Source: an uncultured Candidatus Saccharibacteria bacterium (GTDB lineage Bacteria > Patescibacteriota > Minisyncoccia > JACQLN01). From it: a stretch of 64,000 nt of DNA. Below are positions 1,799-64,000 of the stretch, piece after piece; the first letter of the stretch is position 1; each line of letters opens with the position of its first letter. The stretch spans positions 4,811-68,810 of the forward strand of contig CAZGLK010000001.1 of the NCBI GenBank assembly GCA_964526375.1, given 5' to 3'. Position numbers and translations under genes: made by a program. The notes beneath the pieces are model-generated. The model worked only from the letters and a program-made list of their open reading frames with translations, searched no databases and was not told the DNA's origin.

Positions 1799-2947
1799 AT
1801 GAGCTTATCAAGGGCGGCGGTTATCGGCGCGGTGGCGTTTATGGCGGGCGTGGCGGTTTATTCCGTGGCTGGTTTGCAGTGGTGGCTGGTGAGCGCGCTC
1901 GTGGGCGCGGTGGCGGTTTTGGGTGTGGTAGGCGCTCGGGTTAATGTAAAATATCTCGCGCCCATTTTTGTTGTTGTTTTGTCTTTGCTGGCTGGGCTGG
2001 TTTGGGGGGCCGTTTATCGGCCTCAACCGAAGCAGGAAAAAACTTTTTGGCAGGATGCGCGGGCGGCGTTAACGGCCAAGGCAGATAAAATTATGCCCCA
2101 ACCCGAGGCCGCGGTTTTTGACGGCATGGTTTTGGGCTACGATAAAAACATCCCCGCTTCTTTGAAAGACATTTACAACATTACCGGCACGCGGCATATT
2201 CTGGCCATATCGGGCATGAACATTTCCATTGTGTCCTTAATGCTGATGAGTTTTGGTTTGGCTCTCGGTTTGTGGCGGCGTCAGGCTTTTTGGCTGGCGC
2301 TCGCGGGCATAATCGCTTTTGTTCTTTTGGTAGGCAGTCCGCCTTCAGCTGTTAGGGCCGGCTTGATGGCCGGCATAGTTTTGTGGGCCAGAAACCACGG
2401 TCGGCTGTTCTTAGCTTGGCGGCCGCTGGTATTGGCCGCATTTTTTATGGTCTTGTTGAATCCGCGCCTCTTGATTTTTGACATTGGGTTTCAGCTTTCT
2501 TTTTTGGCGGTGGCCGGCATTTTATATTTTAAGAACTTTTGGGATCATGTTTTCGGCTGGCTGCCCGTAAAACTTGCCCGTGAGTTATTGTCGCTTTCGT
2601 TTGCGGCCCAAATTACCACTTGGCCCATTATTCTTTACAACTTCGGCACCTTTTCACTGGTCGGCCCCATAGCCAATATCTTTGTGGTGCCGCTTTTAAA
2701 CCCCATAATGCTTTTGGGTTTAGGATTTGCGATTTTTTCATGGTGGCCGATATTGTCCCAGGTGTTTTTGTGGCCAGCTTGGCTTATCTTGAAATTAGCC
2801 GACAAAGCCGTGGAATTTTTTGCTACCTTCCCTTGGGCCAGTTTGAACTTGGGCCAGCCGGGTTTGATCGTGCTCGCTTATTATCCTTTCCTGTTGTGGC
2901 TGTGGAAGTTTTTAGAAAGAAAGGGCTTGAACGAGGCGGTGCATTGA
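1799..2947 (+). CDS. comEC: ComEC/Rec2 competence-domain membrane protein (N-terminal half of a split ComEC)
   Basis: Polytopic membrane protein with the ComEC competence-domain signature (NITGTRHILAISGMNISIVSLML). Confidence 0.8.
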   Translation: MSLSRAAVIGAVAFMAGVAVYSVAGLQWWLVSALVGAVAVLGVVGARVNVKYLAPIFVVVLSLLAGLVWGAVYRPQPKQEKTFWQDARAALTAKADKIMPQPEAAVFDGMVLGYDKNIPASLKDIYNITGTRHILAISGMNISIVSLMLMSFGLALGLWRRQAFWLALAGIIAFVLLVGSPPSAVRAGLMAGIVLWARNHGRLFLAWRPLVLAAFFMVLLNPRLLIFDIGFQLSFLAVAGILYFKNFWDHVFGWLPVKLARELLSLSFAAQITTWPIILYNFGTFSLVGPIANIFVVPLLNPIMLLGLGFAIFSWWPILSQVFLWPAWLILKLADKAVEFFATFPWASLNLGQPGLIVLAYYPFLLWLWKFLERKGLNEAVH

Positions 2948-3092: not shown

Positions 3093-3911
3093 ATGTGGTT
3101 GTCTAAAAAATTTGTCTTGGGGGTTTTGGCGTTTATTTTAATCTTGATTTCTTATGCCGTTTGGCAGAAGGGGAACCAGTCGCCGCGGCTGGTGTTTTTG
3201 AATGTGGGGCAGGGCGATGCCATGCTGGCCAGTTTGCCCGGCGACATTCAAATTTTGGTGGACGCCGGGCCGTCGGGCGAGTTGGCTTCTAAACTTTCCG
3301 GCTATTTGCCTTTTTACGATCGCGATATTGAACTGGCAATTTTAACCCATCCCCACGCCGATCACCTGCGGGGTTTTTTGGAGATATTCAAAAATTACAA
3401 TGTTAAAAATTTTATCTTTTCGGGTGCCAATTATTCCAGCCGGGTTTATGCCGATTTTATGGAGGCGTTAAGAAAAGAGGGCAGCGGTGTTTACTTGGCC
3501 GGAAAAGGTGATGTTGTCAGTTATCGGGGCAGACCGATATTGAGAATTTTTTCTCCCGATAAGGTTGAACTTGGGCGTGATTTCAAAAAAATTCACGAGG
3601 CCAACATTGTTAGCCAGCTGGAACTGGGCCATAGAAAATTTTTGCTGATGGGCGATGCCGAAGAAGATCTTGAATTGCGGCTCATCGCGTCAAAGACGAT
3701 TCAAGACGTGGACATTCTAAAAGTCGGCCACCACGGTTCTAAAACCTCCACCTCGGAAAAATTGCTCCAAGCCGCTCGTCCCGAAGAAGCCATCATCTCC
3801 GTCGGCCGCAACTCCTACGGCCACCCCAACCCCGGTGTCCTGGATCGCCTGCATCAAACCGGAGCCAAAGTTTTTAGGACGGATCAGGTGGGGGATGTGG
3901 TTTATAGGTAG
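3093..3911 (+). CDS. comEC: ComEC C-terminal metallo-beta-lactamase domain protein (second half of split ComEC)
   Basis: N-terminal TM helix then MBL motifs LTHPHADHLRG and KVGHHGSKTS. Confidence 0.8.
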   Translation: MWLSKKFVLGVLAFILILISYAVWQKGNQSPRLVFLNVGQGDAMLASLPGDIQILVDAGPSGELASKLSGYLPFYDRDIELAILTHPHADHLRGFLEIFKNYNVKNFIFSGANYSSRVYADFMEALRKEGSGVYLAGKGDVVSYRGRPILRIFSPDKVELGRDFKKIHEANIVSQLELGHRKFLLMGDAEEDLELRLIASKTIQDVDILKVGHHGSKTSTSEKLLQAARPEEAIISVGRNSYGHPNPGVLDRLHQTGAKVFRTDQVGDVVYR

Positions 3912-3947
3912 AAGTTAGAATCTAGAAGTTAGAAAATAGAATATCTT

Positions 3948-4012
3948 TTGGAGACCGAATCTCCAAAAATTGTAATCCCGGAGTTTCTGTTTTGGAGACT
4001 TAGTCTCCAAAA
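3948..4012. repeat. 65-bp direct repeat R1 (copy 1) with two internal hairpins
   Basis: ttggagaccgaatctccaaaaattgtaatcccggagtttctgttttggagacttagtctccaaaa; identical to 4789-4853; contains hairpins GGAGAccgaaTCTCC and GGAGACttaGTCTCC. Confidence 0.7.
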
Positions 4013-4016
4013 TTGG

Positions 4017-4048
4017 GCTCCCGGTGAAAAACATCGGGGGCTTTTTTT
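4017..4048 (+). terminator. rho-independent terminator T1 (copy 1)
   Basis: gctCCCGGTGaaaaaCATCGGGGgcttttttt: 7-bp stem (one G·U), 5-nt loop, U-run; duplicated at 5831-5860. Confidence 0.6.
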
Positions 4049-4077
4049 ATTTTTGAAATTAAGCTAGGATAACAGCA

Positions 4078-4416
4078 ATGAGGTTGGAGCATCAATCAGC
4101 TGAAGAATTAAAAAAGGAAATCTTGGGAATTACGGGTAAATATCTTGATTTAACCAAGTACCGGCTTTTCTTTTTTGGCTCGCGGGTGGCGGGTGATGGT
4201 GATGAGCATTCCGATGTGGATGTGGGTATTGATGGCATTGAGCCACTCCCGCCCGGGGCTATTTCGAGTATTCAGCAGGAACTGGACGATTTGAATACAC
4301 TCTATAAGATACAGGCTGTTGATTTCCAAAAAGTCTCGGAGGATTTTCGCAGGGTTGCCCTGAGCAAGGTAGAGATAATCAATCAACAAGATGAGCAAGC
4401 TAACAGCGGTGATTAA
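4078..4416 (+). CDS. minimal nucleotidyltransferase (MNT) antitoxin-type protein
   Basis: Pol-beta-like NTase motif GSRVAG…SDVDVGI; its 3' end overlaps the downstream HEPN gene. Confidence 0.75.
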   Translation: MRLEHQSAEELKKEILGITGKYLDLTKYRLFFFGSRVAGDGDEHSDVDVGIDGIEPLPPGAISSIQQELDDLNTLYKIQAVDFQKVSEDFRRVALSKVEIINQQDEQANSGD

Positions 4417-4768
4417 ACAATTTGAACAGGCTCTAAGCCGCTTGGACGAGGTTTTGAAAGAACCCAAGACCGATATAGTTAGAGATTCGGCTATAAAGAG
4501 ATTTGAGATTGTTTTTGATCTGTCTTGGAAGGCGGTCAAGGTTTTTTTGGAAGAGAAGAAGGGCATAGTTTGCCGCTCTCCGAAGGAATGTTTTCGTTCG
4601 GCTTATCAGGAGAAGCTGTTGGAGTACGACAATTTCTGGCTGGAGCTGACTGATAGTAGAAACGACATTGTGCATGTATACGGTGAATCGGAGGCGGAGA
4701 AAGTTTATGGAATTTTGCCCGAAGCCCTGCTTAGATTTAAGGAGTTGTTGGGTGCTCTCAAATCGTAG
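4391..4768 (+). CDS. HEPN-domain (nucleotidyltransferase substrate-binding, HI0074-like) toxin-type protein
   Basis: About 125 aa and helical; the overlap (4391-4416) with the MNT gene is typical of MNT-HEPN toxin-antitoxin pairs. Confidence 0.7.
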   Translation: MSKLTAVIKQFEQALSRLDEVLKEPKTDIVRDSAIKRFEIVFDLSWKAVKVFLEEKKGIVCRSPKECFRSAYQEKLLEYDNFWLELTDSRNDIVHVYGESEAEKVYGILPEALLRFKELLGALKS

Positions 4769-4788
4769 GCGGATATTCCGGTCTCGAT

Positions 4789-4853
4789 TTGGAGACCGAA
4801 TCTCCAAAAATTGTAATCCCGGAGTTTCTGTTTTGGAGACTTAGTCTCCAAAA
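4789..4853. repeat. 65-bp direct repeat R1 (copy 2)
   Basis: Identical to 3948-4012 up to …tctccaaaa, then diverges. Confidence 0.7.
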
Positions 4854-4859
4854 ATATCG

Positions 4860-5825
4860 TTGTTATCTCGGCGATGTATCTAAGTCTGCCTAAGCTTAGT
4901 TTGGGAATGGAATAGCAATTGCTTTGGGTTAGGTTAGGTTAGACCAACAAGGTCGGGTGTTTATAACTTGTCCTTGCGCATTTTTTCAATTGGGTATAAG
5001 GTTAAAATAATGTAATGTGATGAAAGTTCTTTAAATTTTGTAGGATGCGTCTGCACTGCGTCCGCCATCCGGAGTTTCCGTGCCACGGAGCTACCGGGTA
5101 ATCAACGGGGTCGATTTTGGTACATCCAATTAAGGAGGTTACCATGTTAGCGCCGCGGAATCGTGGCCGACCTCTTCTGAACAGCTCTAATTCTGTTTCC
5201 GTTCAGGAGAGTTAAGCGTCGACTGCCGGGCGGGCGGGAAACAGCGCCAATGCTAACTGGGAGAATGAGATAAACCGGGGTTCGGGGTGTCGGCTGAGGG
5301 GAGAGGTTATCAGCGACAGCCAGGGGATGAAATTGCCGGCGAGGCAGTTCTTCAAAAAATATCTGCTTCGATGATCAATGTTGTCCGGCGGGCGCGCGTC
5401 TGCCGTGTCAGTAACGGGGAGATGCGCGTTCGCCATTTAGTCTCGCTCCGGAACTTAATCAAATCGCCCGCGCCAAAATTGGCAGCGACGAATTTTGAAA
5501 AAGCTCTGGCTTCAACCGCAAGTTGAGGGCATAATAAGGAGGATCCAAATATGATTGCCCACAACAATCCCGTGCACACGGCCACGCGCGCTTCTCCCTC
5601 TCCGATCACAGGGAACGCAAGTGGTCACAGCGCCGTCGGTCAGAATCAGAACAGCTCCTCGGAAAACTAGTCGGAGATGCGTTAAGGCATATCTGATTGT
5701 GGGCCGACAGCTATCAAAAAAGGTATGCGGCGCTAGAGTCGCGTTTTGTCTCGGTGCACTAAGGAGCGACCGAGCTCCAAAATGCGGCGGCTGACGCAAA
5801 TGTAAGCCATCGAGATTCAACCTCG
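4860..5825. other. GC-rich orphan segment without a long ORF (possible structured RNA, small-peptide locus or decayed foreign DNA)
   Basis: GC visibly higher than flanks; only short overlapping ORFs in all six frames. Two mini-ORFs have perfect AAGGAGG Shine-Dalgarno sequences (ATG 5144, 23 aa; ATG 5551, 39 aa). The segment is bracketed by repeat R1' and terminator copy T1'. Confidence 0.3.
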
Positions 5826-5830
5826 ATAGA

Positions 5831-5860
5831 GCTCCCGGTGAAAAACATCGGGGGCTTTTT
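5831..5860 (+). terminator. rho-independent terminator T1 (copy 2)
   Basis: gctcccggtgaaaaacatcgggggcttttt, identical to 4017-4046. Confidence 0.6.
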
Positions 5861-6104
5861 ATTTGTTATTTGTAGCAATATTGCAGAGTCTTCGGATATT
5901 TCTGTTTCAGGCGATCGCTGGAAATAGAAATATCTGCTGATAGCCGATAGATGTCGATAGATGCTGATGGATTTGGGTTAGAAGTACCTCTTTTTTTATT
6001 CCGGCAGATACGTTAGACTGACAAAACGCAAATTGACGCGGATGATGACCCTGCTTCGCTAGTCAGCTGCGCAGGACACGGCGCGGATTCGCGCGGATAA
6101 TAAT

Positions 6105-7175
6105 ATGACAAAAGGGTTTCCTATTTTTAAAACAAGAATTAAGGGGGTGAATCAAGTTTTTAAACTGGAAGATCCGGTAGATCGCCAAAAGTATTTCCGG
6201 CTTAAGGCCGGGCGGGAAATAGCAAAAATACGCGGCTACCTAAAGAAAAACACTTTTGTTGGTTTTCTTTTGGGCAAGAAAAATTCGGGTAAGGGCACTT
6301 ACGCTAAGTTGTTTATGGAGGCAATTGGCTCAGCCCGCCTTGCTCACATTTCCATTGGCGACATCGTGCGCGGCGTTCACAAAGATTTGAATGATAGGAA
6401 AAGAAAGAAAGATCTGGTTGAGTTTTTAAGGCGCCGTTATCGCGGGCCGATTACCATTGAAAGCGCCTTGGAGATAATCTTGGGCCGGGACACCAAAGGC
6501 CTCTTGCCCACGGAAGTCATATTAGCTTTGGTGGAGCGCGAAATTGACAAGCTGGCCGGCAAAGCCGTTTTTATAGACGGTTTCCCGCGCGATCTGGACC
6601 AAATATCTTACTCGCTTTATTTTAGGGCCTTGATGGGTTACCGCGACGACCCCGATTTTTTTGTTTTTATAGATGTGCCTGAAAGCATCATAGACGAGCG
6701 CATGAAATATCGGGTGGTTTGCCCGTTGTGTCAGACCCCGCGCAATATGCGGGTCCATGCCACCAAAGAGGTGGATTATGATTCCGGCGCCAAAAAGTTT
6801 TACTTGCTGTGCGACAACCCCGGCTGCGGCAAAAAAAGAATGACGGCCAAAGAGGGCGATGAGTTGGGCATTGAGGCTATTCGCTCGCGCATAGAAATAG
6901 ACGATAAAGTTATGAAAACTCTGCTGAACTTTAACGGCATAGACAAAATATATTTGCGCAATTCTGTGCCGGTCAAAACGGCCAAGAGGTATGTGGATGA
7001 CTATGAAATTACGCCGGCTTATCGGTACGAGTGGGACAAAAATGTCAGTAAAGTTAGGATCGTAGAAGAGCCCTGGGTGGTTAAAGACGGCGCCGGAGAA
7101 AAATCTTACAGCTTACTGCCGCCGGCTGTAGTTGTGTCTTTGATTAGGCAAGTGGCCAAGGTTTTATCCTTGTAG
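6105..7175 (+). CDS. adenylate kinase family protein, divergent and extended (356 aa)
   Basis: P-loop GKKNSGKGT, ISIGDIVRG (cf. STGDMLRA), IDGFPRDLDQ (cf. LDGFPRTIPQ), a zinc LID CPLC…C..GC and RSRIE. The N-terminal ~50 aa and C-terminal ~120 aa extensions have no Adk counterpart. Confidence 0.65.
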   Translation: MTKGFPIFKTRIKGVNQVFKLEDPVDRQKYFRLKAGREIAKIRGYLKKNTFVGFLLGKKNSGKGTYAKLFMEAIGSARLAHISIGDIVRGVHKDLNDRKRKKDLVEFLRRRYRGPITIESALEIILGRDTKGLLPTEVILALVEREIDKLAGKAVFIDGFPRDLDQISYSLYFRALMGYRDDPDFFVFIDVPESIIDERMKYRVVCPLCQTPRNMRVHATKEVDYDSGAKKFYLLCDNPGCGKKRMTAKEGDELGIEAIRSRIEIDDKVMKTLLNFNGIDKIYLRNSVPVKTAKRYVDDYEITPAYRYEWDKNVSKVRIVEEPWVVKDGAGEKSYSLLPPAVVVSLIRQVAKVLSL

Positions 7176-7255
7176 ATGGTCAGCTTCCCACATATGTGGA
7201 TAAATGGTTGTTGACTTTTTGATCTATGGTGCTACACCGAAAGCAAGATAAAAAA

Positions 7256-7284
7256 CCCCAGACTTCAAATCTGGGGCTTTTTAT
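7256..7284 (+). terminator. rho-independent terminator
   Basis: CCCCAGActtcaaaTCTGGGGcttttta directly after the adk-like gene. Confidence 0.7.
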
Positions 7285-7339
7285 GCTGGCTACGAAATAC
7301 GACGTAAAGTCGCGTGGCGACCACGTCGCTTTACGCGAA

Positions 7340-7378
7340 TTGTTACGAATATACGAATATGAAATCAAGTGGTATAAT
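7340..7378 (+). promoter_or_regulatory. candidate nth promoter: tandem TACGAAT units plus an extended -10 (TGgTATAAT)
   Basis: ttacgaatatacgaatatgaaatcaagTGgTATAAT, with the -10 at 7373-7378, 20 nt upstream of the nth ATG; the 18-mer tacgaatatacgaatatg recurs at 12576-12593. Confidence 0.4.
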
Positions 7379-7397
7379 TTTAAAAGAGGGAATTTGT

Positions 7398-8111
7398 ATG
7401 TCTAATGTTGTGGCAATAAATCCAAAACTCAAAATCCAAAATCCTAAGCAAATCCCAATGACCAAAATCCAAAACAAATCCCGCGGTGAGGGTTTAGAAG
7501 AGAAAAAGTCTCGGGCGAGCAAGGTTATTGCCTACTTAAAGAAAAAATTTCCCGGTGCCAAAATAGCCCTGAAGTACGGCAACCCAATCCAATTATTAGT
7601 GTCGGTTGTATTATCGGCTCAATGCACCGACAAAAAAGTCAACGAGGTTACGGCGGAGCTGTTTAAGAAATACAAAACAGGGGCTGATTTTGCCGAAGCG
7701 AACACAAAAAAATTTGAGCGGGAAGTAAAGCCCTGCGGGTTTTACCGCAATAAGGCCAAAAATATTATCGCCGCTTGTAAAATCATCCAAGACAAATTCA
7801 AAGGCAAACTGCCGCGAACGATGGCCGAGATGTTAACTTTGCCGGGCGTGGCCCGCAAAACCGCCAATGTGGTTTTGGGCAATGCCTTTGGTGTGGTGGA
7901 GGGGATTGCGGTGGATACGCACATGATCCGCATCAATCAGAAGCTTGGTTTTTCTACCAGTACCGACCCCAAAAAAATTGAGAGGGATCTTATGCAGATT
8001 ATTCCTAAAAAGGATTGGTTTAAATACACCTATTTAATAATTGACTACGGCCGCCAGGTTTGCCCGGCGCGGCATAAAAAATGTGAGTGCGGGATTTATA
8101 AAATTAAATAG
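7398..8111 (+). CDS. nth: endonuclease III (DNA glycosylase/AP lyase)
   Basis: HhH-GPD motifs LVSVVLSAQCTD and LPGVARKTANVV, DTHMIRI, and a C-terminal [4Fe-4S] cluster C-x6-C-x2-C-x5-C. The start is chosen at MSNVV with an AGAGGG RBS; the ORF-track start at 7314 lies inside the promoter repeats. Confidence 0.85.
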   Translation: MSNVVAINPKLKIQNPKQIPMTKIQNKSRGEGLEEKKSRASKVIAYLKKKFPGAKIALKYGNPIQLLVSVVLSAQCTDKKVNEVTAELFKKYKTGADFAEANTKKFEREVKPCGFYRNKAKNIIAACKIIQDKFKGKLPRTMAEMLTLPGVARKTANVVLGNAFGVVEGIAVDTHMIRINQKLGFSTSTDPKKIERDLMQIIPKKDWFKYTYLIIDYGRQVCPARHKKCECGIYKIK

Positions 8112-9294: not shown

Positions 9295-9323
9295 TGAGTA
9301 GGGAGTAGGGGGGTAAAAATTAA

Positions 9324-9362
9324 AACAGCCGCTTCGTTTTTTGTGCGAAGGGCTGTTTTATG
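9324..9362. terminator. bidirectional hairpin terminator between convergent genes
   Basis: acagccgcttcg-ttttttgtg-cgaagggctgt with T-runs on both strands. Confidence 0.5.
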
Positions 9363-9557
9363 TTACGAGACCGTGGCCCCGAAACGGATGGTGGGGTTGC
9401 ATACGATTTCTTCTATGCATTTTGTGAATAAGTCTCCTAGGGTATCGGGGTGAAAGTCTTCATGGTGGATTAGATCTCTGATCTTGTCTGGTGTCATTAG
9501 GTCGGGAGGCGGCCTTTGACCCATTAGTTTTTCCCAAGCCTGTTCAATGGGAGTCAT
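9363..9557 (-). CDS. small hypothetical protein (64 aa), paralog of 9873-10151
   Basis: Shared pattern AW..M.G..PPP……HP……C..EI with the neighbouring ORF; GC-richer than the backbone. Confidence 0.45.
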   Translation of the reverse strand: MTPIEQAWEKLMGQRPPPDLMTPDKIRDLIHHEDFHPDTLGDLFTKCIEEIVCNPTIRFGATVS

Positions 9558-9708
9558 AAAATATCACCACCTTTGTGTTGAAAGAACTTGGTTCTATTTT
9601 CTCACGGCGGTTGCAGCGGCGCAAGTGTATAAACTACGGCACCGCCCAATTTTTACAGCCAAAGTATTCCGAGGGGGCAGGTCAAACATGTAGCAACTCA
9701 TTTCATTG

Positions 9709-9754
9709 TATTGTTTCCTCTTCCCAGACGATCGTCTGTGGGATGGAAACAATA
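9709..9754. repeat. 46-nt stem-loop repeat, copy C
   Basis: 10-bp stem TATTGTTTCC/GGAAACAATA and a 26-nt loop with AGACGATCGTC; same architecture as copies A and B. Confidence 0.6.
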
Positions 9755-9872
9755 TCAAAGTCGCTTACAAATCATCGCTGGAAGAAATTTTTAGCGGGAT
9801 TCTTGCAAAGGAACAAATAAAAATCCGCCCCGATGCGCGCATCGGGGCGGGGGAGGAGGGAAGGAACTTGCT

Positions 9873-11589: not shown

Positions 11590-11626
11590 TTCAAAAATGT
11601 TCTTTTTGGGAAGGAGGTGAAGCATT

Positions 11627-11812
11627 ATGTCCGGGCTTTGTGATCCCGCCGATCGCTATCCGATACAAGAAGCACCAATAGGTATCCGGGAACAGATACT
11701 GGACCTTTGGGAGCAACTTGTTAAGGAACTGCCGGTGGAAGGCAGGCGTTGGTTGATTTTTGAGTTACACAAAATTGACCCCGAGCCGTTTTCGCAATGG
11801 TTTGGCAAATAA
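11627..11812 (+). CDS. small hypothetical protein (61 aa)
   Basis: Strong RBS GGAAGGAGGTG; no family recognised. Confidence 0.4.
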   Translation: MSGLCDPADRYPIQEAPIGIREQILDLWEQLVKELPVEGRRWLIFELHKIDPEPFSQWFGK

Positions 11813-11827
11813 GAGGAGGCGCCGGGT

Positions 11828-12082
11828 ATGTCAAAAAAGATATTGCTGCGAGACACCGGAGTCTATATTGTTGGGATGGCGGTTTTGATTCTGGCGATAT
11901 TTGGGCTTTTCTGGCTGTCCCAAACAATGTGGGCGAGTTTTGGGTCTGTTTGGGTTCTCTTGGCTATGGGCGGCATCGCGCTGGAAGGTTTGGTTATTGC
12001 CGCGAGTGTCATCTTGCTTAGTGTGTGGTACGGTTTTGGCTGGAGGGAATTCATTCATCTACATCTAGCGCGGCGAGGTTAA
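11828..12082 (+). CDS. small membrane protein (84 aa, 2-3 TM helices)
   Basis: RBS AGGAGG, hydrophobic helices. Confidence 0.5.
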   Translation: MSKKILLRDTGVYIVGMAVLILAIFGLFWLSQTMWASFGSVWVLLAMGGIALEGLVIAASVILLSVWYGFGWREFIHLHLARRG

Positions 12083-12134: not shown

Positions 12135-12206
12135 GGTGGGTAAGGGGAATCGAACCCCCCTCACCGCTGCCACAGAGCGGCGCTTTACCACTAAGCTATA
12201 CCCACC
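12135..12206 (-). tRNA. tRNA-His (anticodon GTG)
   Basis: Hand-folded cloverleaf: G-1 GTGGGTA acceptor, D-stem GCTT/AAGC, anticodon stem CCGCT/AGCGG with loop CTGTGGC, T-arm GGGGG-TTCGATT-CCCCT, discriminator C. Confidence 0.8.
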
Positions 12207-12674: not shown

Positions 12675-12746
12675 GCCCCAGTAGTTCAATGGACAGAACA
12701 GGACTCTTCTAAGGTCTAGATGGGGGTTCGATTCCCTCCTGGGGCG
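12675..12746 (+). tRNA. tRNA-Arg (anticodon TCT)
   Basis: Hand-folded: acceptor GCCCCAG/CTGGGGC, D-stem GTTC/GAAC, anticodon stem GGACT/GGTCT (two G·U) with loop CTTCTAA, T-arm GGGGG-TTCGATT-CCCTC; 72 nt. Confidence 0.8.
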
Positions 12747-15497: not shown

Positions 15498-15628
15498 CTT
15501 CCTTAGCTTGTTAGAAAAAATTCTCTGACCTAAAAAGCCAATGAAGCTAATAAGCTAACGAAGCTTTAGAATAATCCACAGCTTGGCTGTTGGAGGTGGC
15601 GGTTTTTTGTGATATTGTAGGTGGAGAT

Positions 15629-15793
15629 GGTTACAAAACTCTCTCTGCTGCAATTTCATATTTTCGGCTGCGACTTCGTCAGACTGCGCAAAAAGGTTTT
15701 CACCGTAGTTTTACTACGGCTTCAAACCTTTTTGCTTGCCTTCCTCGTCTCGCCAGAAAATATGAAATTTCGCCACGAAAGAGTTTTGTAACC
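15629..15793. repeat. 165-bp imperfect palindrome (arms ~70 bp) in the long intergenic region after clpB
   Basis: Outer blocks GGTTACAAAACTCT / AGAGTTTTGTAACC are perfect. Inner blocks are aatttcatattttc / gaaaatatgaaatt and caaaaaggttt / aaacctttttg, with a central small IR ccgtagt…actacgg. Confidence 0.5.
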
Positions 15794-16515
15794 ATCTCGT
15801 AAATAGTTTTTGCCGGGTTTCTTTATGCTGGTGTTTATCCACAACCCTGCCCTTGCTCTAGGTTGGCTTGTGGTATAATTGCTGTAAAGAGTTTTGACCT
15901 GTGTATAAACCATGTCTCTTGTGATGGGTTGACGGGTCTTGTTGACTTGTGAAATGCGCTAGCATATCATTTGGTCTAAGGAAGATCTATCAGCTCGCGT
16001 ACGGAGTGTGAGTGTTAAACCAAGCGGTTCGCAGGCAATATATGATTGTTTCCCAAACAAAGATATTTTGAAGGCCTTTTGCAACGGCTCTTTTGTGATT
16101 TACGAAATACGAATTGGTACGCCTGCCTGCGGTAGGCAGGAATCTACGAAAATTAAAGATGTGGACAGATGAGTTTGCGCGAGGATTGATTTGAGATTAG
16201 GACTCGTGTATGCTCATATGTTCATGTCCGGTGTAGTTTTCCAGCAAGCTCGCACCTTGACAATTGAATATCCTGTAAGTCTCGAATCTTGAATCTTGGA
16301 TCTTGGATCGTGAATATTGGATCATGGGGTGCGATTCAAGAAGTGCGAATAGTGATTTTAGTGGAGTGTCTTAAGTCGGGTCGGTCTCTTTAGGAGGAAG
16401 ACTTGACCTCCGATTGAATGCGATTATTAAAATTAGCAACTAACTTTGCGGGTTGATAGCAACCAAGGGATCGCAAGATACCTGGGCTGCCTTCAGCCAA
16501 AAACGAGAAAAACAA

Positions 16516-63050: not shown

Positions 63051-64000
63051 GTATCTCGCCTTAGTTCTGGCGGGCGTATTGTTAACGGGTGTGCTGTATG
63101 TGTCCCCCCAGATTTTAATTTTAAGACAGGTTGAAAATAGCGGGGGTGCTTTTGCGCTAAGACAATTTGTGGAATTTACCGACGAAGTTCATGGTTATTT
63201 TCCTCGGGCTAAAGAGGTGGCTGACGGCCATTTTCCTCCCAGCGATCTTTTTCTCGGCAGCGGAGCTCCAATCGTGCTTAATCCATTGCCGCCTTTGTTG
63301 TTTGGGGCGTTAATATTTTTATTTGGCGACATAACCCGGGCCTACTTCGCCGCCCAGTTTATTTTTTCGGGATTATTATTTCTTTTGTTTGTCTGGCTGG
63401 GCCGCGAGATTTTTAACGGTTCCCGGTTTGGATCAGTAGTGTTAGGTTTGGTGGGCATTTTAACGCCCATAGCTTTGCATCTGCCGCGAGCTTTTTTTGG
63501 TCTGGAGAACTTTCTTAATATTGTGGCTAAAAATTTTTTCCCTTTGGTTAAGACACACCTGGGAACCCTGTTTTTTTCGCGCATAGACGACCCTTTGTTG
63601 ACCTATCTTTTTTATCTGCCCGCCATTGTTTTACTGCTTAGGTTTTGGAAAGATCCCTCCCGCCGCGGCGTGGCCGTGGGCGCTGGTCTTTTAGGAGCAT
63701 CCCTGATGTATGTCTATTTCCATTTTTGGGTCTATTGGATTGTTGTTTTGGGACTATTGGGCATCATCTGCATCTTGTTAAAAGAAAGGAACAAAGATTA
63801 TTTTAGCGGGTTTAGGTGGTTGCTGGGGGCTTTCCTGGTAACGGCTTTGCCCTACGGTGTTAATTATTTTAACTTTTCAAGGTTGCCGTCGTCGGCTGAT
63901 TACCTCTTGAGATTGGGTCTAGAATCGGGCAGAATTTTTAAGCCCGAGGCCATCCCTCATTTTATTGCCTATTCCGTTTTGGCGGTTTTGGTTTATTTTG
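63031..64000 (+). CDS. large polytopic membrane protein, N-terminal part (continues past the window); paralog of 32643-34541
   Basis: YFPRAKEVADGHFPPSDL aligns with YLPRAREIYDGNFPPADL; IDDPLLTYLFYLPA… aligns with IDNPLLTVPFYLLA…; FHFWVYWIVVLGLL aligns with FHLWVFWVVLIGIL in the - strand protein; again adjacent to a DPM1-like GT2. Confidence 0.6.
   Translation, partial: MPRVSFRYLALVLAGVLLTGVLYVSPQILILRQVENSGGAFALRQFVEFTDEVHGYFPRAKEVADGHFPPSDLFLGSGAPIVLNPLPPLLFGALIFLFGDITRAYFAAQFIFSGLLFLLFVWLGREIFNGSRFGSVVLGLVGILTPIALHLPRAFFGLENFLNIVAKNFFPLVKTHLGTLFFSRIDDPLLTYLFYLPAIVLLLRFWKDPSRRGVAVGAGLLGASLMYVYFHFWVYWIVVLGLLGIICILLKERNKDYFSGFRWLLGAFLVTALPYGVNYFNFSRLPSSADYLLRLGLESGRIFKPEAIPHFIAYSVLAVLVYF

What the first reader, a model, noticed from the sequence alone, without database searches (positions are those of the whole stretch)
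4860..5825. GC-rich ~1-kb segment with no long ORF but two mini-ORFs behind perfect AAGGAGG ribosome-binding sites
Seen in sequence: composition is clearly GC-richer than neighbours; all six frames have only short overlapping ORFs (typical of GC-rich noncoding or structured RNA). Yet two perfect Shine-Dalgarno sequences precede short ORFs: taAGGAGGttaccATG (23 aa) at 5144 and atAAGGAGGatccaaatATG (39 aa, S/T/N-rich MIAHNNPVHTATRASPSPITGNASGHSAVGQNQNSSSEN) at 5551. Candidates are a large structured ncRNA, a small-peptide or leader-peptide locus, or a decayed horizontally acquired gene.
Basis: seen in the sequence. Interest (0 to 1): 0.5.

Follow-up and report, generated by a model that had tools for sequence, protein, structure and literature searches.

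The report
Orphan structured noncoding insert with mini-ORFs
A roughly 1-kb stretch found only in one groundwater Parcubacteria population is a recent insertion that encodes no recognisable protein, folds unusually stably as RNA, carries two strong ribosome-binding sites before tiny ORFs and ends in a terminator, but it has no relatives anywhere, so its function cannot be confirmed.

Summary
The core 5040-5839 is 54.8% GC against a window mean of 45.7% (98th percentile). No ORF exceeds 102 aa. Two perfect AAGGAGG+ATG sites precede ORFs of 23 and 39 aa.

It matches no Rfam family, tRNA or tmRNA. It is not a recognisable pseudogene: six-frame Pfam and PHROGs scans and two large protein searches found nothing, and no frame shows host-like codon bias. 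It is a lineage-specific indel of about 1.08 kb (4909-5986) in a comEC(MBL)-to-adk-like intergenic hotspot. Relatives with 86-87% ADK identity have the flanking blocks 2 nt apart. Three independent assemblies confirm both junctions.

The 3' end is a two-hairpin intrinsic terminator that also follows unrelated genes in another Parcubacteria genome. The + strand folds far better than shuffles (z about -5, and -5.6 without the terminator), while ten coding controls gave -1.5 to +1.4.

Best reading, at confidence about 0.4: a + strand transcription unit giving a highly structured RNA of about 0.85 kb that carries two SD-led mini-ORFs. Rivals are a fossil of two small gene cassettes, an untranslated ncRNA, and recombination debris. 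No homologue exists, so covariation cannot be tested. Interest is modest.

The parts
3947..4012 (.). D1a: 66-nt element made of two 23-nt palindromes (TTTTGGAGA-N5-TCTCCAAAA and TTTTGGAGAC-TTA-GTCTCCAAAA), downstream of the comEC MBL gene
   Evidence: exact 66/66 direct repeat with 4788-4853
4015..4050 (+). Ta: first copy of the intrinsic terminator GCTCCCGGTG-AAAAA-CATCGGGGGC followed by a T run
   Evidence: a homologue with pair-preserving changes follows the MBL gene in relative L054
4078..4768 (+). MntA-like nucleotidyltransferase (4078-4416) and HI0074/HepT-like HEPN protein (4391-4768): a type VII-like toxin-antitoxin pair. It is a neighbour, not part of the segment
   Evidence: Homologous TA loci elsewhere align only over 4078-4775 and have nothing like the segment
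4788..4853 (.). D1b: exact second copy of D1; it flanks the Ta + TA block
4853..4908 (+). Block X: ancestral intergenic DNA, homologous to L048 2517-2579 (the relative with 86% ADK identity)
4909..5986 (+). Lineage-specific indel (1078 nt) relative to L048, where blocks X and Y are 2 nt apart. The 10-bp direct repeat TTTGGGTTAG lies at 4923-4932 and 5972-5981. There are no terminal inverted repeats
4983..5011 (+). Promoter-like site TTTTCA-17-AATAAT inside the AT-rich stretch 4951-5040 (weak, 9 of 12 matches)
   Evidence: the count of promoter-like sites in the region does not exceed shuffles
5040..5800 (+). GC-rich, highly structured core without coding signal
   Evidence: GC. Fold z = -5.6 on + and -3.5 on -. 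The whole unit gives z = -5.2 / -4.5 against coding controls of -1.5 to +1.4. No protein or Rfam matches
5118..5144 (+). Predicted hairpin that pairs SD1 (5134-5136 with 5125-5127) and 5141-5144 with 5118-5121, covering the SD and the first base of the start codon
   Evidence: pair probabilities 0.8-1.0 in the ensemble of the 849-nt RNA
5131..5215 (+). SD1 (TAAGGAGGT) plus sORF1, 23 aa: MLAPRNRGRPLLNSSNSVSVQES
5387..5434 (+). Strongest internal hairpin: 15-bp stem GGCGGGCGCGCGUCU / AGAUGCGCGUUCGCC
5430..5527 (+). U1: possible degenerate paralogue of 5739-5831 (U2), lying just before SD2
   Evidence: local alignment z = 4.2-4.8, p <= 0.008 before correction for several tests; 67 of 86 aligned positions match
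5535..5670 (+). SD2 (TAAGGAGGA) plus sORF2, 39 aa: MIAHNNPVHTATRASPSPITGNASGHSAVGQNQNSSSEN
5807..5865 (+). Two-hairpin terminator module: ATCGAG-loop-CTCGAT, then Tb (GCTCCCGGTG-AAAAA-CATCGGGGGC followed by a T run)
   Evidence: The same module follows an unrelated 137-aa gene in L064
5895..5934 (.). 40-nt palindrome centred on GCGATCGC; similar palindromes recur in relatives' intergenic regions
   Evidence: I10
5987..6020 (+). Block Y: conserved upstream region of the adk-like gene with a TTAGACT -10-like box; homologous to L048 2582-2615

Best explanation
The segment is a recent, lineage-specific insertion of about 1.05 kb into the upstream region of the adk-like gene, inside an intergenic hotspot of a Parcubacteria genome. 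I read it as a + strand transcription unit. Transcription would start in the AT-rich stretch near 4983-5011, or continue by read-through from the adjacent MntA/HepT operon, which has no terminator of its own. It would stop at the lineage's portable two-hairpin intrinsic terminator (5807-5865). The product would be a GC-rich RNA of about 0.85 kb that is far more structured than its composition predicts. It is not an ordinary mRNA, but it carries two canonical translation-initiation regions, so it would be a structured, mRNA-like RNA with two mini-ORFs (23 and 39 aa). SD1 is predicted to be locked in a local hairpin, and sORF1 lies inside a domain closed by long-range helices (5059-5066/5229-5236 and 5109-5115/5218-5224), so its translation would depend on structure. 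SD2 sits in a weak hairpin (about half its bases predicted unpaired) and would be more readily available to ribosomes. What is shown: the insertion status, the absence of coding signal and of homologues, the terminator, the excess folding energy and the SD+ATG geometry. What is inferred: transcription, the start site, translation of the mini-ORFs, and any function.
For: Insertion: the flanks are contiguous in the relative with 86% ADK identity. The segment is absent from all 45 related loci of the genome-contig scan and from the closer relatives L048-L057 fetched afterwards. The junctions are identical in three assemblies. Orientation and 3' end: the hairpin plus T run exists only on the + strand. 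The terminator is conserved with G-U/G-C pair-preserving changes in relatives and is reused after unrelated genes. Structure: z = -5.19 and -4.51 on replication, against ten coding controls at -1.49 to +1.35. Without the terminator, z = -5.6 on + and -3.5 on -. Non-coding: searches found no homologues. Period-3 power is 0.97 against 3.7-9.7 in neighbouring genes. The best-frame codon score never exceeds +0.07, whereas the true frame of adk scores +0.05 to +0.28 and a GC-rich cassette gene scores +0.11. SD+ATG: two of only seven AGGAGG-N4-10-ATG sites in the window lie here, all seven on the + strand, and three of the other five start plausible small genes.
Against: There is no homologue, so there is no covariation and no evidence of selection. 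The promoter match is weak (9 of 12) and promoter-like sites are not enriched. The whole-unit z-score is the same on both strands, and much of the signal comes from a few strong hairpins. Both peptides are short, low-complexity and Ser/Asn-rich, with codon scores of 0.02 and 0.05, near the 5th percentile of real coding chunks. No expression data exist. Functional large RNAs are normally conserved beyond a single population.
Confidence: 0.4

Rival explanations
1. Fossil of two small, horizontally moved gene cassettes. Gene 1 would start at 5144 and end near 5526. Gene 2 would start at 5551 and end near 5794. Each would have its own SD and a shared type of 3' module. Frameshifts and stop codons would have destroyed both genes, leaving no current function.
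For: The two SD+ATG sites are 407 nt apart. The 79-aa +1 ORF stops at 5526, 10 nt before SD2. The 79-aa +2 ORF stops at 5794, 13 nt before the terminator hairpin. A relative carries an intact GC-rich (56%) 137-aa gene with a consensus promoter, an SD and the same terminator module. The possible U1/U2 and T-like internal repeats suggest stacked cassette 3' ends. Local 120-nt period-3 chi-square is intermediate (median 8.1, against 9.9 for genes and 5.2 for shuffles). Relative L057 holds four orphan small ORFs at the same hotspot.
Against: No frame shows coding-like codon bias, although the same score recognises the GC-rich cassette gene and the TA genes. Overall period-3 power is absent. The longest ORFs have no homologue among 1.84 billion and 5.8 billion proteins, and Pfam and PHROGs six-frame scans found none. 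Both SDs are perfect while the ORFs would be thoroughly destroyed. A fold z of -5.6 is not expected of a dead gene. The bodies 5120-5430 and 5528-5740 are not paralogous.
Confidence: 0.25
2. A purely non-coding structured RNA of about 0.8 kb, a new large ncRNA. The AAGGAGG motifs would be structural or ribosome- or protein-binding elements, and the mini-ORFs would not be translated.
For: It is a GC-rich, ORF-free intergenic segment in an AT-rich genome, with strong excess folding energy that is stronger on the + strand once the terminator is removed. It has its own terminator. SD1 is buried in a helix.
Against: It matches no Rfam family at E<=10. There is no homologue, so no covariation. Two perfect SDs, each followed by ATG at 5 and 8 nt, are unlikely by chance. 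Known large bacterial ncRNAs are found in many species, whereas this one is known from a single population.
Confidence: 0.15
3. Functionless filler: hairpin-rich debris left by repeated illegitimate or site-specific recombination in an indel hotspot, including duplicated local pieces, with nothing expressed on purpose.
For: The locus is clearly unstable. There is an exact 66-nt D1 duplication around the TA pair, a duplicated terminator and a TTTGGGTTAG repeat. The gap between the MBL and adk-like genes ranges from 8 nt to 2.2 kb among relatives. The segment is an orphan.
Against: The core 4951-5804 does not derive from any sequence in the window or in the fetched loci. Chance does not readily give z of about -5, 98th-percentile GC, two perfect SD+ATG sites and a correctly oriented terminator together.
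Confidence: 0.15

Closest known systems
Large GC-rich intergenic structured ncRNAs of AT-rich bacteria (OLE, GOLLD, ROOL, raiA; found by the GC-rich intergenic-region approach, e.g. PMC8632094)
   Same: Several hundred nucleotides long, ORF-free, GC-enriched relative to the genome, thermodynamically very stable, and located in accessory or mobile context next to a toxin-antitoxin pair.
   Different: It matches none of their covariance models. It has no homologues and no covariation. It carries two canonical SD+ATG sites, which those RNAs do not have (from my own knowledge of these families).
Dual-function sRNAs and small-ORF transcripts (e.g. RNAIII/hld, SgrS/SgrT, SR1/SR1P)
   Same: A structured RNA that also contains one or more SD-led small ORFs, with an SD partly sequestered by structure.
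   Different: It is much longer and has two ORFs. There is no conservation, no known target and no experimental evidence. The resemblance rests on architecture only.
Promoter-gene-terminator accessory cassette ending in the same terminator module (L064, JGI Ga0209515_10032428)
   Same: GC-rich insert in an AT-rich Parcubacteria genome, a strong SD, and an identical two-hairpin terminator at the 3' end.
   Different: The L064 cassette has a consensus TTGACA-17-TATAAT promoter and an intact 137-aa ORF with coding-like codon usage. The segment here has neither, and its body is unrelated.
Repeated intergenic terminator or palindromic elements (REP/BIME- or Correia-like repeats)
   Same: D1, the terminator module and the GCGATCGC-centred palindromes are short repeated hairpin elements found in several intergenic sites and genomes.
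   Different: These account only for the edges of the segment. The ~850-nt core is unique.

Membership tests
Any Rfam family (RNase P, tmRNA, 6S, group I/II introns, OLE, GOLLD, ROOL, HEARO, riboswitches and others) | Match to the family covariance model at or near its gathering score | tested here: not met
   Only tRNAs elsewhere in the window pass. In the segment the best hits are sucA at 16.5 bits (threshold 40, E 3.6-9.7) and similar noise. ARAGORN finds no tRNA or tmRNA.
Structured non-coding RNA (generic) | Secondary structure conserved through compensatory changes among homologues | not testable with these tools
   No homologue was found in 45 + 10 related loci, phages, plasmids, viral contigs or through protein-space look-ups.
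Structured non-coding RNA (generic) | Folding energy well below dinucleotide shuffles and below coding controls | tested here: met
   z = -5.19 and -4.51, against controls of -1.49 to +1.35. z = -5.6 on + and -3.5 on - without the terminator.
Pseudogene of a known protein family | Translated similarity to a protein family or to any predicted protein | tested here: not met
   (Pfam and PHROGs, six frames, E up to 1-10). (102-aa ORF, 5.8 billion proteins). (79-aa ORF, 1.84 billion representatives). (aspS, which occupies this site in some relatives).
Pseudogene or decayed coding sequence (generic) | Residual codon periodicity or codon bias in some frame | tested here: inconclusive
   Global period-3 power is 0.97 against 3.7-9.7 in neighbouring genes. 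The best-frame codon score is at most +0.07. However, local chi-square is intermediate, and the weakest chunk of a real GC-rich gene scores only +0.064.
Small-protein gene | Shine-Dalgarno sequence at 4-10 nt from a start codon | tested here: met
   Both sites match 9 nt of the canonical anti-SD sequence, with spacers of 5 and 8 nt.
Small-protein gene | Peptide conserved in other genomes, or coding-like codon usage | tested here: inconclusive
   Neither peptide is in the 15-billion-protein collection and neither matches NCBIfam. Codon scores of 0.018 and 0.047 lie between the coding and non-coding distributions.
Insertion sequence / MITE | Terminal inverted repeats, and a transposase for an autonomous element | tested here: not met
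   End-to-end inverted alignment is no better than shuffles. There is no transposase-like ORF.
Insertion sequence / MITE | Target-site duplication | tested here: inconclusive
   TTTGGGTTAG lies at 4923-4932 and 5972-5981, but relative L051 already has two ATGGGTT(A/G)C copies at the empty site, so the repeat may predate the insertion.
Type VII HepT/MntA toxin-antitoxin module | The segment travels with the TA genes | tested here: not met
   The closest HEPN homologues are only 64% identical or less. Their loci align only over the TA coding region.
Rho-independent terminator (3' end of the unit) | GC-rich hairpin followed by a U run, conserved in relatives | tested here: met
   Relatives L054 and L064 keep the stem through U-G/C-G exchanges.
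Leader peptide / attenuator of the downstream adk-like gene | The mini-ORF and terminator lie in the 5' leader of the regulated gene, with no promoter in between | tested here: not met
   The terminator is 245 nt upstream of the adk-like start. It is followed by the conserved block Y with the -10-like TTAGACT box that precedes this gene in relatives lacking the segment.

The most novel reading that the evidence does not exclude
The insert would be a previously undescribed, lineage-restricted, dual-function RNA of about 0.85 kb (structured RNA plus two translated micro-proteins). It would be carried on a promoter-to-terminator cassette, one of a class of accessory cassettes in Parcubacteria that share a portable two-hairpin terminator and land in intergenic hotspots without disturbing neighbouring genes.
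Probability: 0.12. Interest if true: 0.55.

Novelty: new member of a known kind. Interest (0 to 1): 0.28.

Why it matters
CPR/Patescibacteria genomes are small and densely coding, so a kilobase of non-coding DNA needs explaining, and very few RNAs specific to these bacteria are known. If the segment is expressed, it would be a new structured RNA or micro-protein locus from an uncultivated lineage. It would also illustrate how accessory cassettes, insulated by a reusable terminator, enter intergenic hotspots. If it is a fossil, it is simply a snapshot of rapid turnover at such a hotspot. As it stands, it is a single-population orphan and cannot be validated by comparative analysis.

Tried and rejected
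- **Known RNA family:** Rfam at gathering score and at E<=10, run three times, plus ARAGORN, found nothing.
- **aspS pseudogene:** some relatives have aspS between the MBL and adk-like genes, but tblastn finds no remnant here.
- **Frameshifted known gene:** six-frame Pfam and PHROGs scans, NCBIfam for the mini-ORFs, and the 102-aa and 79-aa ORFs against billions of proteins all gave zero hits.
- **Alternative genetic code:** every frame is broken by a mix of TAA, TAG and TGA.
- **Paralogue of something else in the window or the fetched loci:** blastn, tblastx and nhmmer found none apart from the D1 and terminator repeats.
- **Phage or plasmid origin:** blastn in distant mode found no match. 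Five exact-word scans of the segment in IMG/VR gave nothing or only chance 18-mers. Two further IMG/VR scans, with the terminator and a D1 palindrome, also found nothing.
- **Linkage to the TA pair:** homologous TA loci lack the segment.
- **IS or MITE:** there are no terminal inverted repeats.
- **Integron attC-like cassette and ColE1-like RNA-primed origin:** considered from memory. No inverse core site, no RNAI hit and no plasmid similarity were found, so both were dropped.
- **Spurious-ORF trick for finding RNA homologues:** only the 74-aa minus-strand ORF is in the protein collection, as a singleton cluster seen on two contigs of the same population.
- **Internal tandem duplication of about 320 nt:** not supported. 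Only the U1/U2 similarity is marginally significant.

Full report
**Source and context.** The window is from a groundwater Parcubacteria (Patescibacteria/CPR) MAG. The region 4023-7402 is 100% identical to GCA_016204085.1 contig JACQLP010000016.1. Parts of it are identical to contigs assembled independently from runs SRR12113383, SRR12113384 and SRR12113424. Both junctions of the reported segment are therefore real and not an assembly artefact.

The gene order, all on the + strand, is as follows:
- comEC N-terminal part (1799-2947)
- comEC MBL part (3093-3911)
- MntA-like nucleotidyltransferase (4078-4416) and HI0074/HepT-like HEPN protein (4391-4768)
- the segment under study
- an adenylate-kinase-like gene (6105-7175)
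- endonuclease III (7314-8111)

**Observation check.**
- **Ribosome-binding sites and mini-ORFs.** The two perfect sites and their ORFs of 23 and 39 aa are exactly as described.
- **ORF length.** No ORF exceeds 102 aa, and the longer ones overlap on both strands.
- **GC content.** The GC-rich body is 5040-5839 at 54.75% GC. This is the 98th percentile of 800-nt windows, where the window mean is 45.7% with sd 3.6. The first ~190 nt of the reported interval are AT-rich.
- **Frequency of the SD+ATG pattern.** AGGAGG-N4-10-ATG occurs only 7 times in the window, all on the + strand, against 2.9 +/- 1.6 expected from shuffles. Two of the seven lie in this kilobase.
- **What the other five sites mark.** Three start plausible small genes of 61, 84 and 125 aa, one is an in-frame internal Met, and one opens a 6-codon ORF.

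**Anatomy of the locus.**
- **D1 repeat.** A 66-nt double palindrome (D1) occurs twice, at 3947-4012 and 4788-4853, with 66/66 identity. The two copies bracket a terminator copy (Ta, 4015-4050) and the TA pair.
- **Terminator repeat.** The same terminator core (25 of 25 nt) recurs at 5831-5855 (Tb), preceded by a second hairpin at 5807-5829.
- **Comparison with L048.** In this relative (86% ADK identity), positions 2517-2579 align to window 4853-4908 and positions 2582-2615 align to window 5987-6020. Two blocks that lie 2 nt apart in the relative are therefore separated here by 1078 nt (4909-5986).
- **Ends of the indel.** A 10-bp direct repeat, TTTGGGTTAG, sits near both ends, but there are no terminal inverted repeats. 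Relative L051 already has two similar short repeats at the empty site, so the repeat may not be a target-site duplication.
- **Downstream flank.** Block Y contains a -10-like TTAGACT box that is conserved upstream of the adk-like gene in relatives. That gene therefore keeps its own promoter region downstream of Tb.

**The site is an indel hotspot.** The 45 species-level relatives came from the genome-contig scan. The closer relatives were found through the protein database. Across these genomes the MBL and adk-like genes are 8-190 nt apart in some, separated by aspS in others, by 523 nt in L048, and by 1836 nt holding four orphan small ORFs in L057. nhmmer with the whole 2.2-kb intergenic region finds only the TA genes, block X and the terminator in any of them. 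Nothing matches the core 4951-5804.

**The segment is not a known RNA.** Rfam reports only the two tRNAs elsewhere in the window at gathering thresholds. At E<=10, in two further searches, nothing credible appears in the segment. ARAGORN finds nothing.

**The segment is not a recognisable gene remnant.**
- **Profile scans.** All ORFs of 74 aa or more, and complete six-frame translations, give no Pfam or PHROGs match.
- **Large protein searches.** The 102-aa minus-strand ORF has no hit among 5.8 billion proteins. The most protein-like ORF (79 aa, +1 frame) has no hit among 1.84 billion representatives with full HMMER sensitivity.
- **aspS.** There is no remnant of aspS, the gene that occupies this site in some relatives.
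- **Genetic code.** No single stop-codon reassignment opens a frame.
- **Periodicity.** Period-3 spectral power is 0.97, against 7.5, 3.7 and 9.7 for the neighbouring genes.
- **Codon usage.** With a codon log-odds score trained on 41 genes of the window, all ORFs in the segment score -0.19 to +0.05. Genes average 0.153 +/- 0.038, and small or acquired genes score 0.10-0.29. In sliding windows no frame exceeds +0.07. The same score does recognise a foreign GC-rich gene, at +0.11.
- **Caveat.** A frameshift-tolerant local test is intermediate: the median chi-square is 8.1, against 9.9 for genes and 5.2 for shuffles. A very old or atypical coding origin cannot be excluded.

**Evidence for RNA structure.**
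- **Whole unit.** The putative unit 5018-5866 has an MFE of -334.6 kcal/mol, against -293.7 +/- 7.9 for dinucleotide shuffles, giving z = -5.19. The minus strand gives z = -5.27 with a weaker absolute energy.
- **Controls.** My replicate gave z = -4.51. Ten coding segments of equal length from the same window gave -1.49 to +1.35.
- **Without the terminator.** For 5040-5800 the + strand keeps z = -5.6 while the minus strand drops to -3.5.
- **Where the signal lies.** It is concentrated in 5300-5499 and 5600-5899. It includes a 15-bp stem (5387-5434), two 11-bp stems, and long-range helices that enclose sORF1.
- **State of the two SDs.** SD1 and the first base of its start codon are predicted to pair in a local hairpin (5118-5127/5134-5144) with probability 0.8-1.0. 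SD2 lies in a weak hairpin and is about half unpaired.

**The 3' module is portable.** An exact-pattern scan of JGI metagenomes with the terminator core found two contigs from one sample. One (L065) is the contig already held as L055, where the terminator follows the MBL gene of the relative with 77% ADK identity. The other (L064) has a different context: the full two-hairpin module follows an intact, GC-rich (56%) 137-aa gene that has a consensus TTGACA-17-TATAAT promoter and an SD. That gene is unrelated to the segment. The stem differences between copies are U-G/C-G exchanges that keep the pairing, which fits a functional terminator. The module therefore marks the 3' end of accessory expression units in this lineage, and it sets the orientation of the present unit as +.

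**Possible internal repeats.** Positions 5430-5527, just before SD2, align to 5739-5831, just before Tb, with z = 4.2-4.8 and p <= 0.008 before correction for several comparisons. Positions 5045-5118, just before SD1, weakly resemble the terminator module (p about 0.03). If real, each SD follows a degenerate copy of a cassette 3' end, which would favour a stacked-cassette origin. The bodies of the two putative cassettes are not related.

**Weighing the explanations.**
- **Debris.** Pure chance or recombination debris does not account for high GC, z of about -5, two perfect SD+ATG sites and a correctly oriented, conserved terminator occurring together.
- **Fossil of two cassette genes.** This explains the SD spacing and the positions of two ORF ends: 5526 is 10 nt before SD2, and 5794 is 13 nt before the terminator hairpin. 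It is hard to reconcile with the lack of codon bias, the perfect preservation of both SDs and the strong folding signal.
- **Untranslated ncRNA.** This explains the structure but not the SD+ATG geometry.
- **Chosen reading.** I therefore favour, with modest confidence (0.4), a + strand transcript that is highly structured and carries two small translated ORFs, with SD1 gated by structure. It may start in the AT-rich stretch (promoter-like site 4983-5011). It may instead be the tail of the TA operon, since D1b has no U run after its hairpins and no other terminator lies between 4768 and Tb. Transcription, translation and function are all inferred.

**Comparison with what is known and novelty.**
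- **Architectural resemblance.** The segment resembles the large GC-rich intergenic ncRNAs of AT-rich bacteria and dual-function sRNAs.
- **Family membership.** It is not a member of any described family, since the defining covariance-model matches were tested and not met.
- **Limits of validation.** It cannot be validated as a new family, because it is known from a single population. The 74-aa spurious ORF inside it forms a singleton cluster among 15 billion proteins.
- **Classification.** I class it as at most a new member of a known kind (an accessory small-ORF or structured-RNA locus) and rate interest at about 0.28.

Noticed in passing
window 5807-5865 and 4015-4050; L064 951-1056 (minus strand); L054 4770-4800; L055, L056, L065: A two-hairpin intrinsic terminator module (ATCGAG-loop-CTCGAT, then GCTCCCGGTG-AAAAA-CATCGGGGGC followed by a T run) is reused after unrelated genes in at least two Parcubacteria genomes. 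Stem changes between copies preserve pairing. It looks like a portable terminator or repeat element.
   Followed up: partly
window 3911-6105; L003-L057: The intergenic site between comEC(MBL) and the adk-like gene is an indel hotspot. Among relatives it ranges from 8 nt to 2.2 kb and holds aspS, a TA pair, orphan small ORFs (L057 3308-4795) or nothing.
   Followed up: partly
window 3947-4012 and 4788-4853: An exact 66-nt direct repeat, each copy made of two 23-nt palindromes, brackets a terminator copy plus the MntA/HepT-like TA pair. This suggests a recent recombination or integration event. The palindromes lack a U run, so they are not terminators.
   Followed up: partly
window 5895-5934; L048 2290-2340 and 2420-2458; L051 3770-3797; L054 4711-4736: Palindromes centred on GCGATCGC (the motif known as HIP1 in cyanobacteria) recur in the intergenic regions of this Parcubacteria lineage.
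   Followed up: no
window 11612-12082: Two strong-SD small ORFs sit in a gap free of ORFs of 90 aa or more, next to two tRNA genes (12135-12205 on the minus strand, 12675-12746 on the plus strand): 61 aa (hydrophilic) starting at 11627, and 84 aa (apparently transmembrane) starting at 11828.
   Followed up: no
window 15498-16452, 9295-9872, 63051-64000: Further stretches of 580-955 nt lack any ORF of at least 90 aa (42-47% GC). They were not examined.
   Followed up: no
window 1799-2947 and 3093-3911: ComEC is encoded as two separate ORFs (Competence/N-terminal domain and MBL domain). The relatives show the same split, so this looks like a lineage feature and not a pseudogene.
   Followed up: partly
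L001 1-47 versus window 4067-4113: The NCBI contig JACQLP010000016.1 starts with 47 nt that duplicate a position 44 nt further in, and it breaks inside terminator copy Ta. This looks like a repeat-induced assembly break.
   Followed up: no
L066 6370-7423: GIY-YIG and LAGLIDADG homing-endonuclease ORFs lie about 2 kb downstream of a homologous TA pair in another CPR contig.
   Followed up: no
window 7402-7480: A low-complexity CAAAA(T/C)CC-type repeat lies between the adk-like and endonuclease III genes, at the point where the NCBI contig ends.
   Followed up: no
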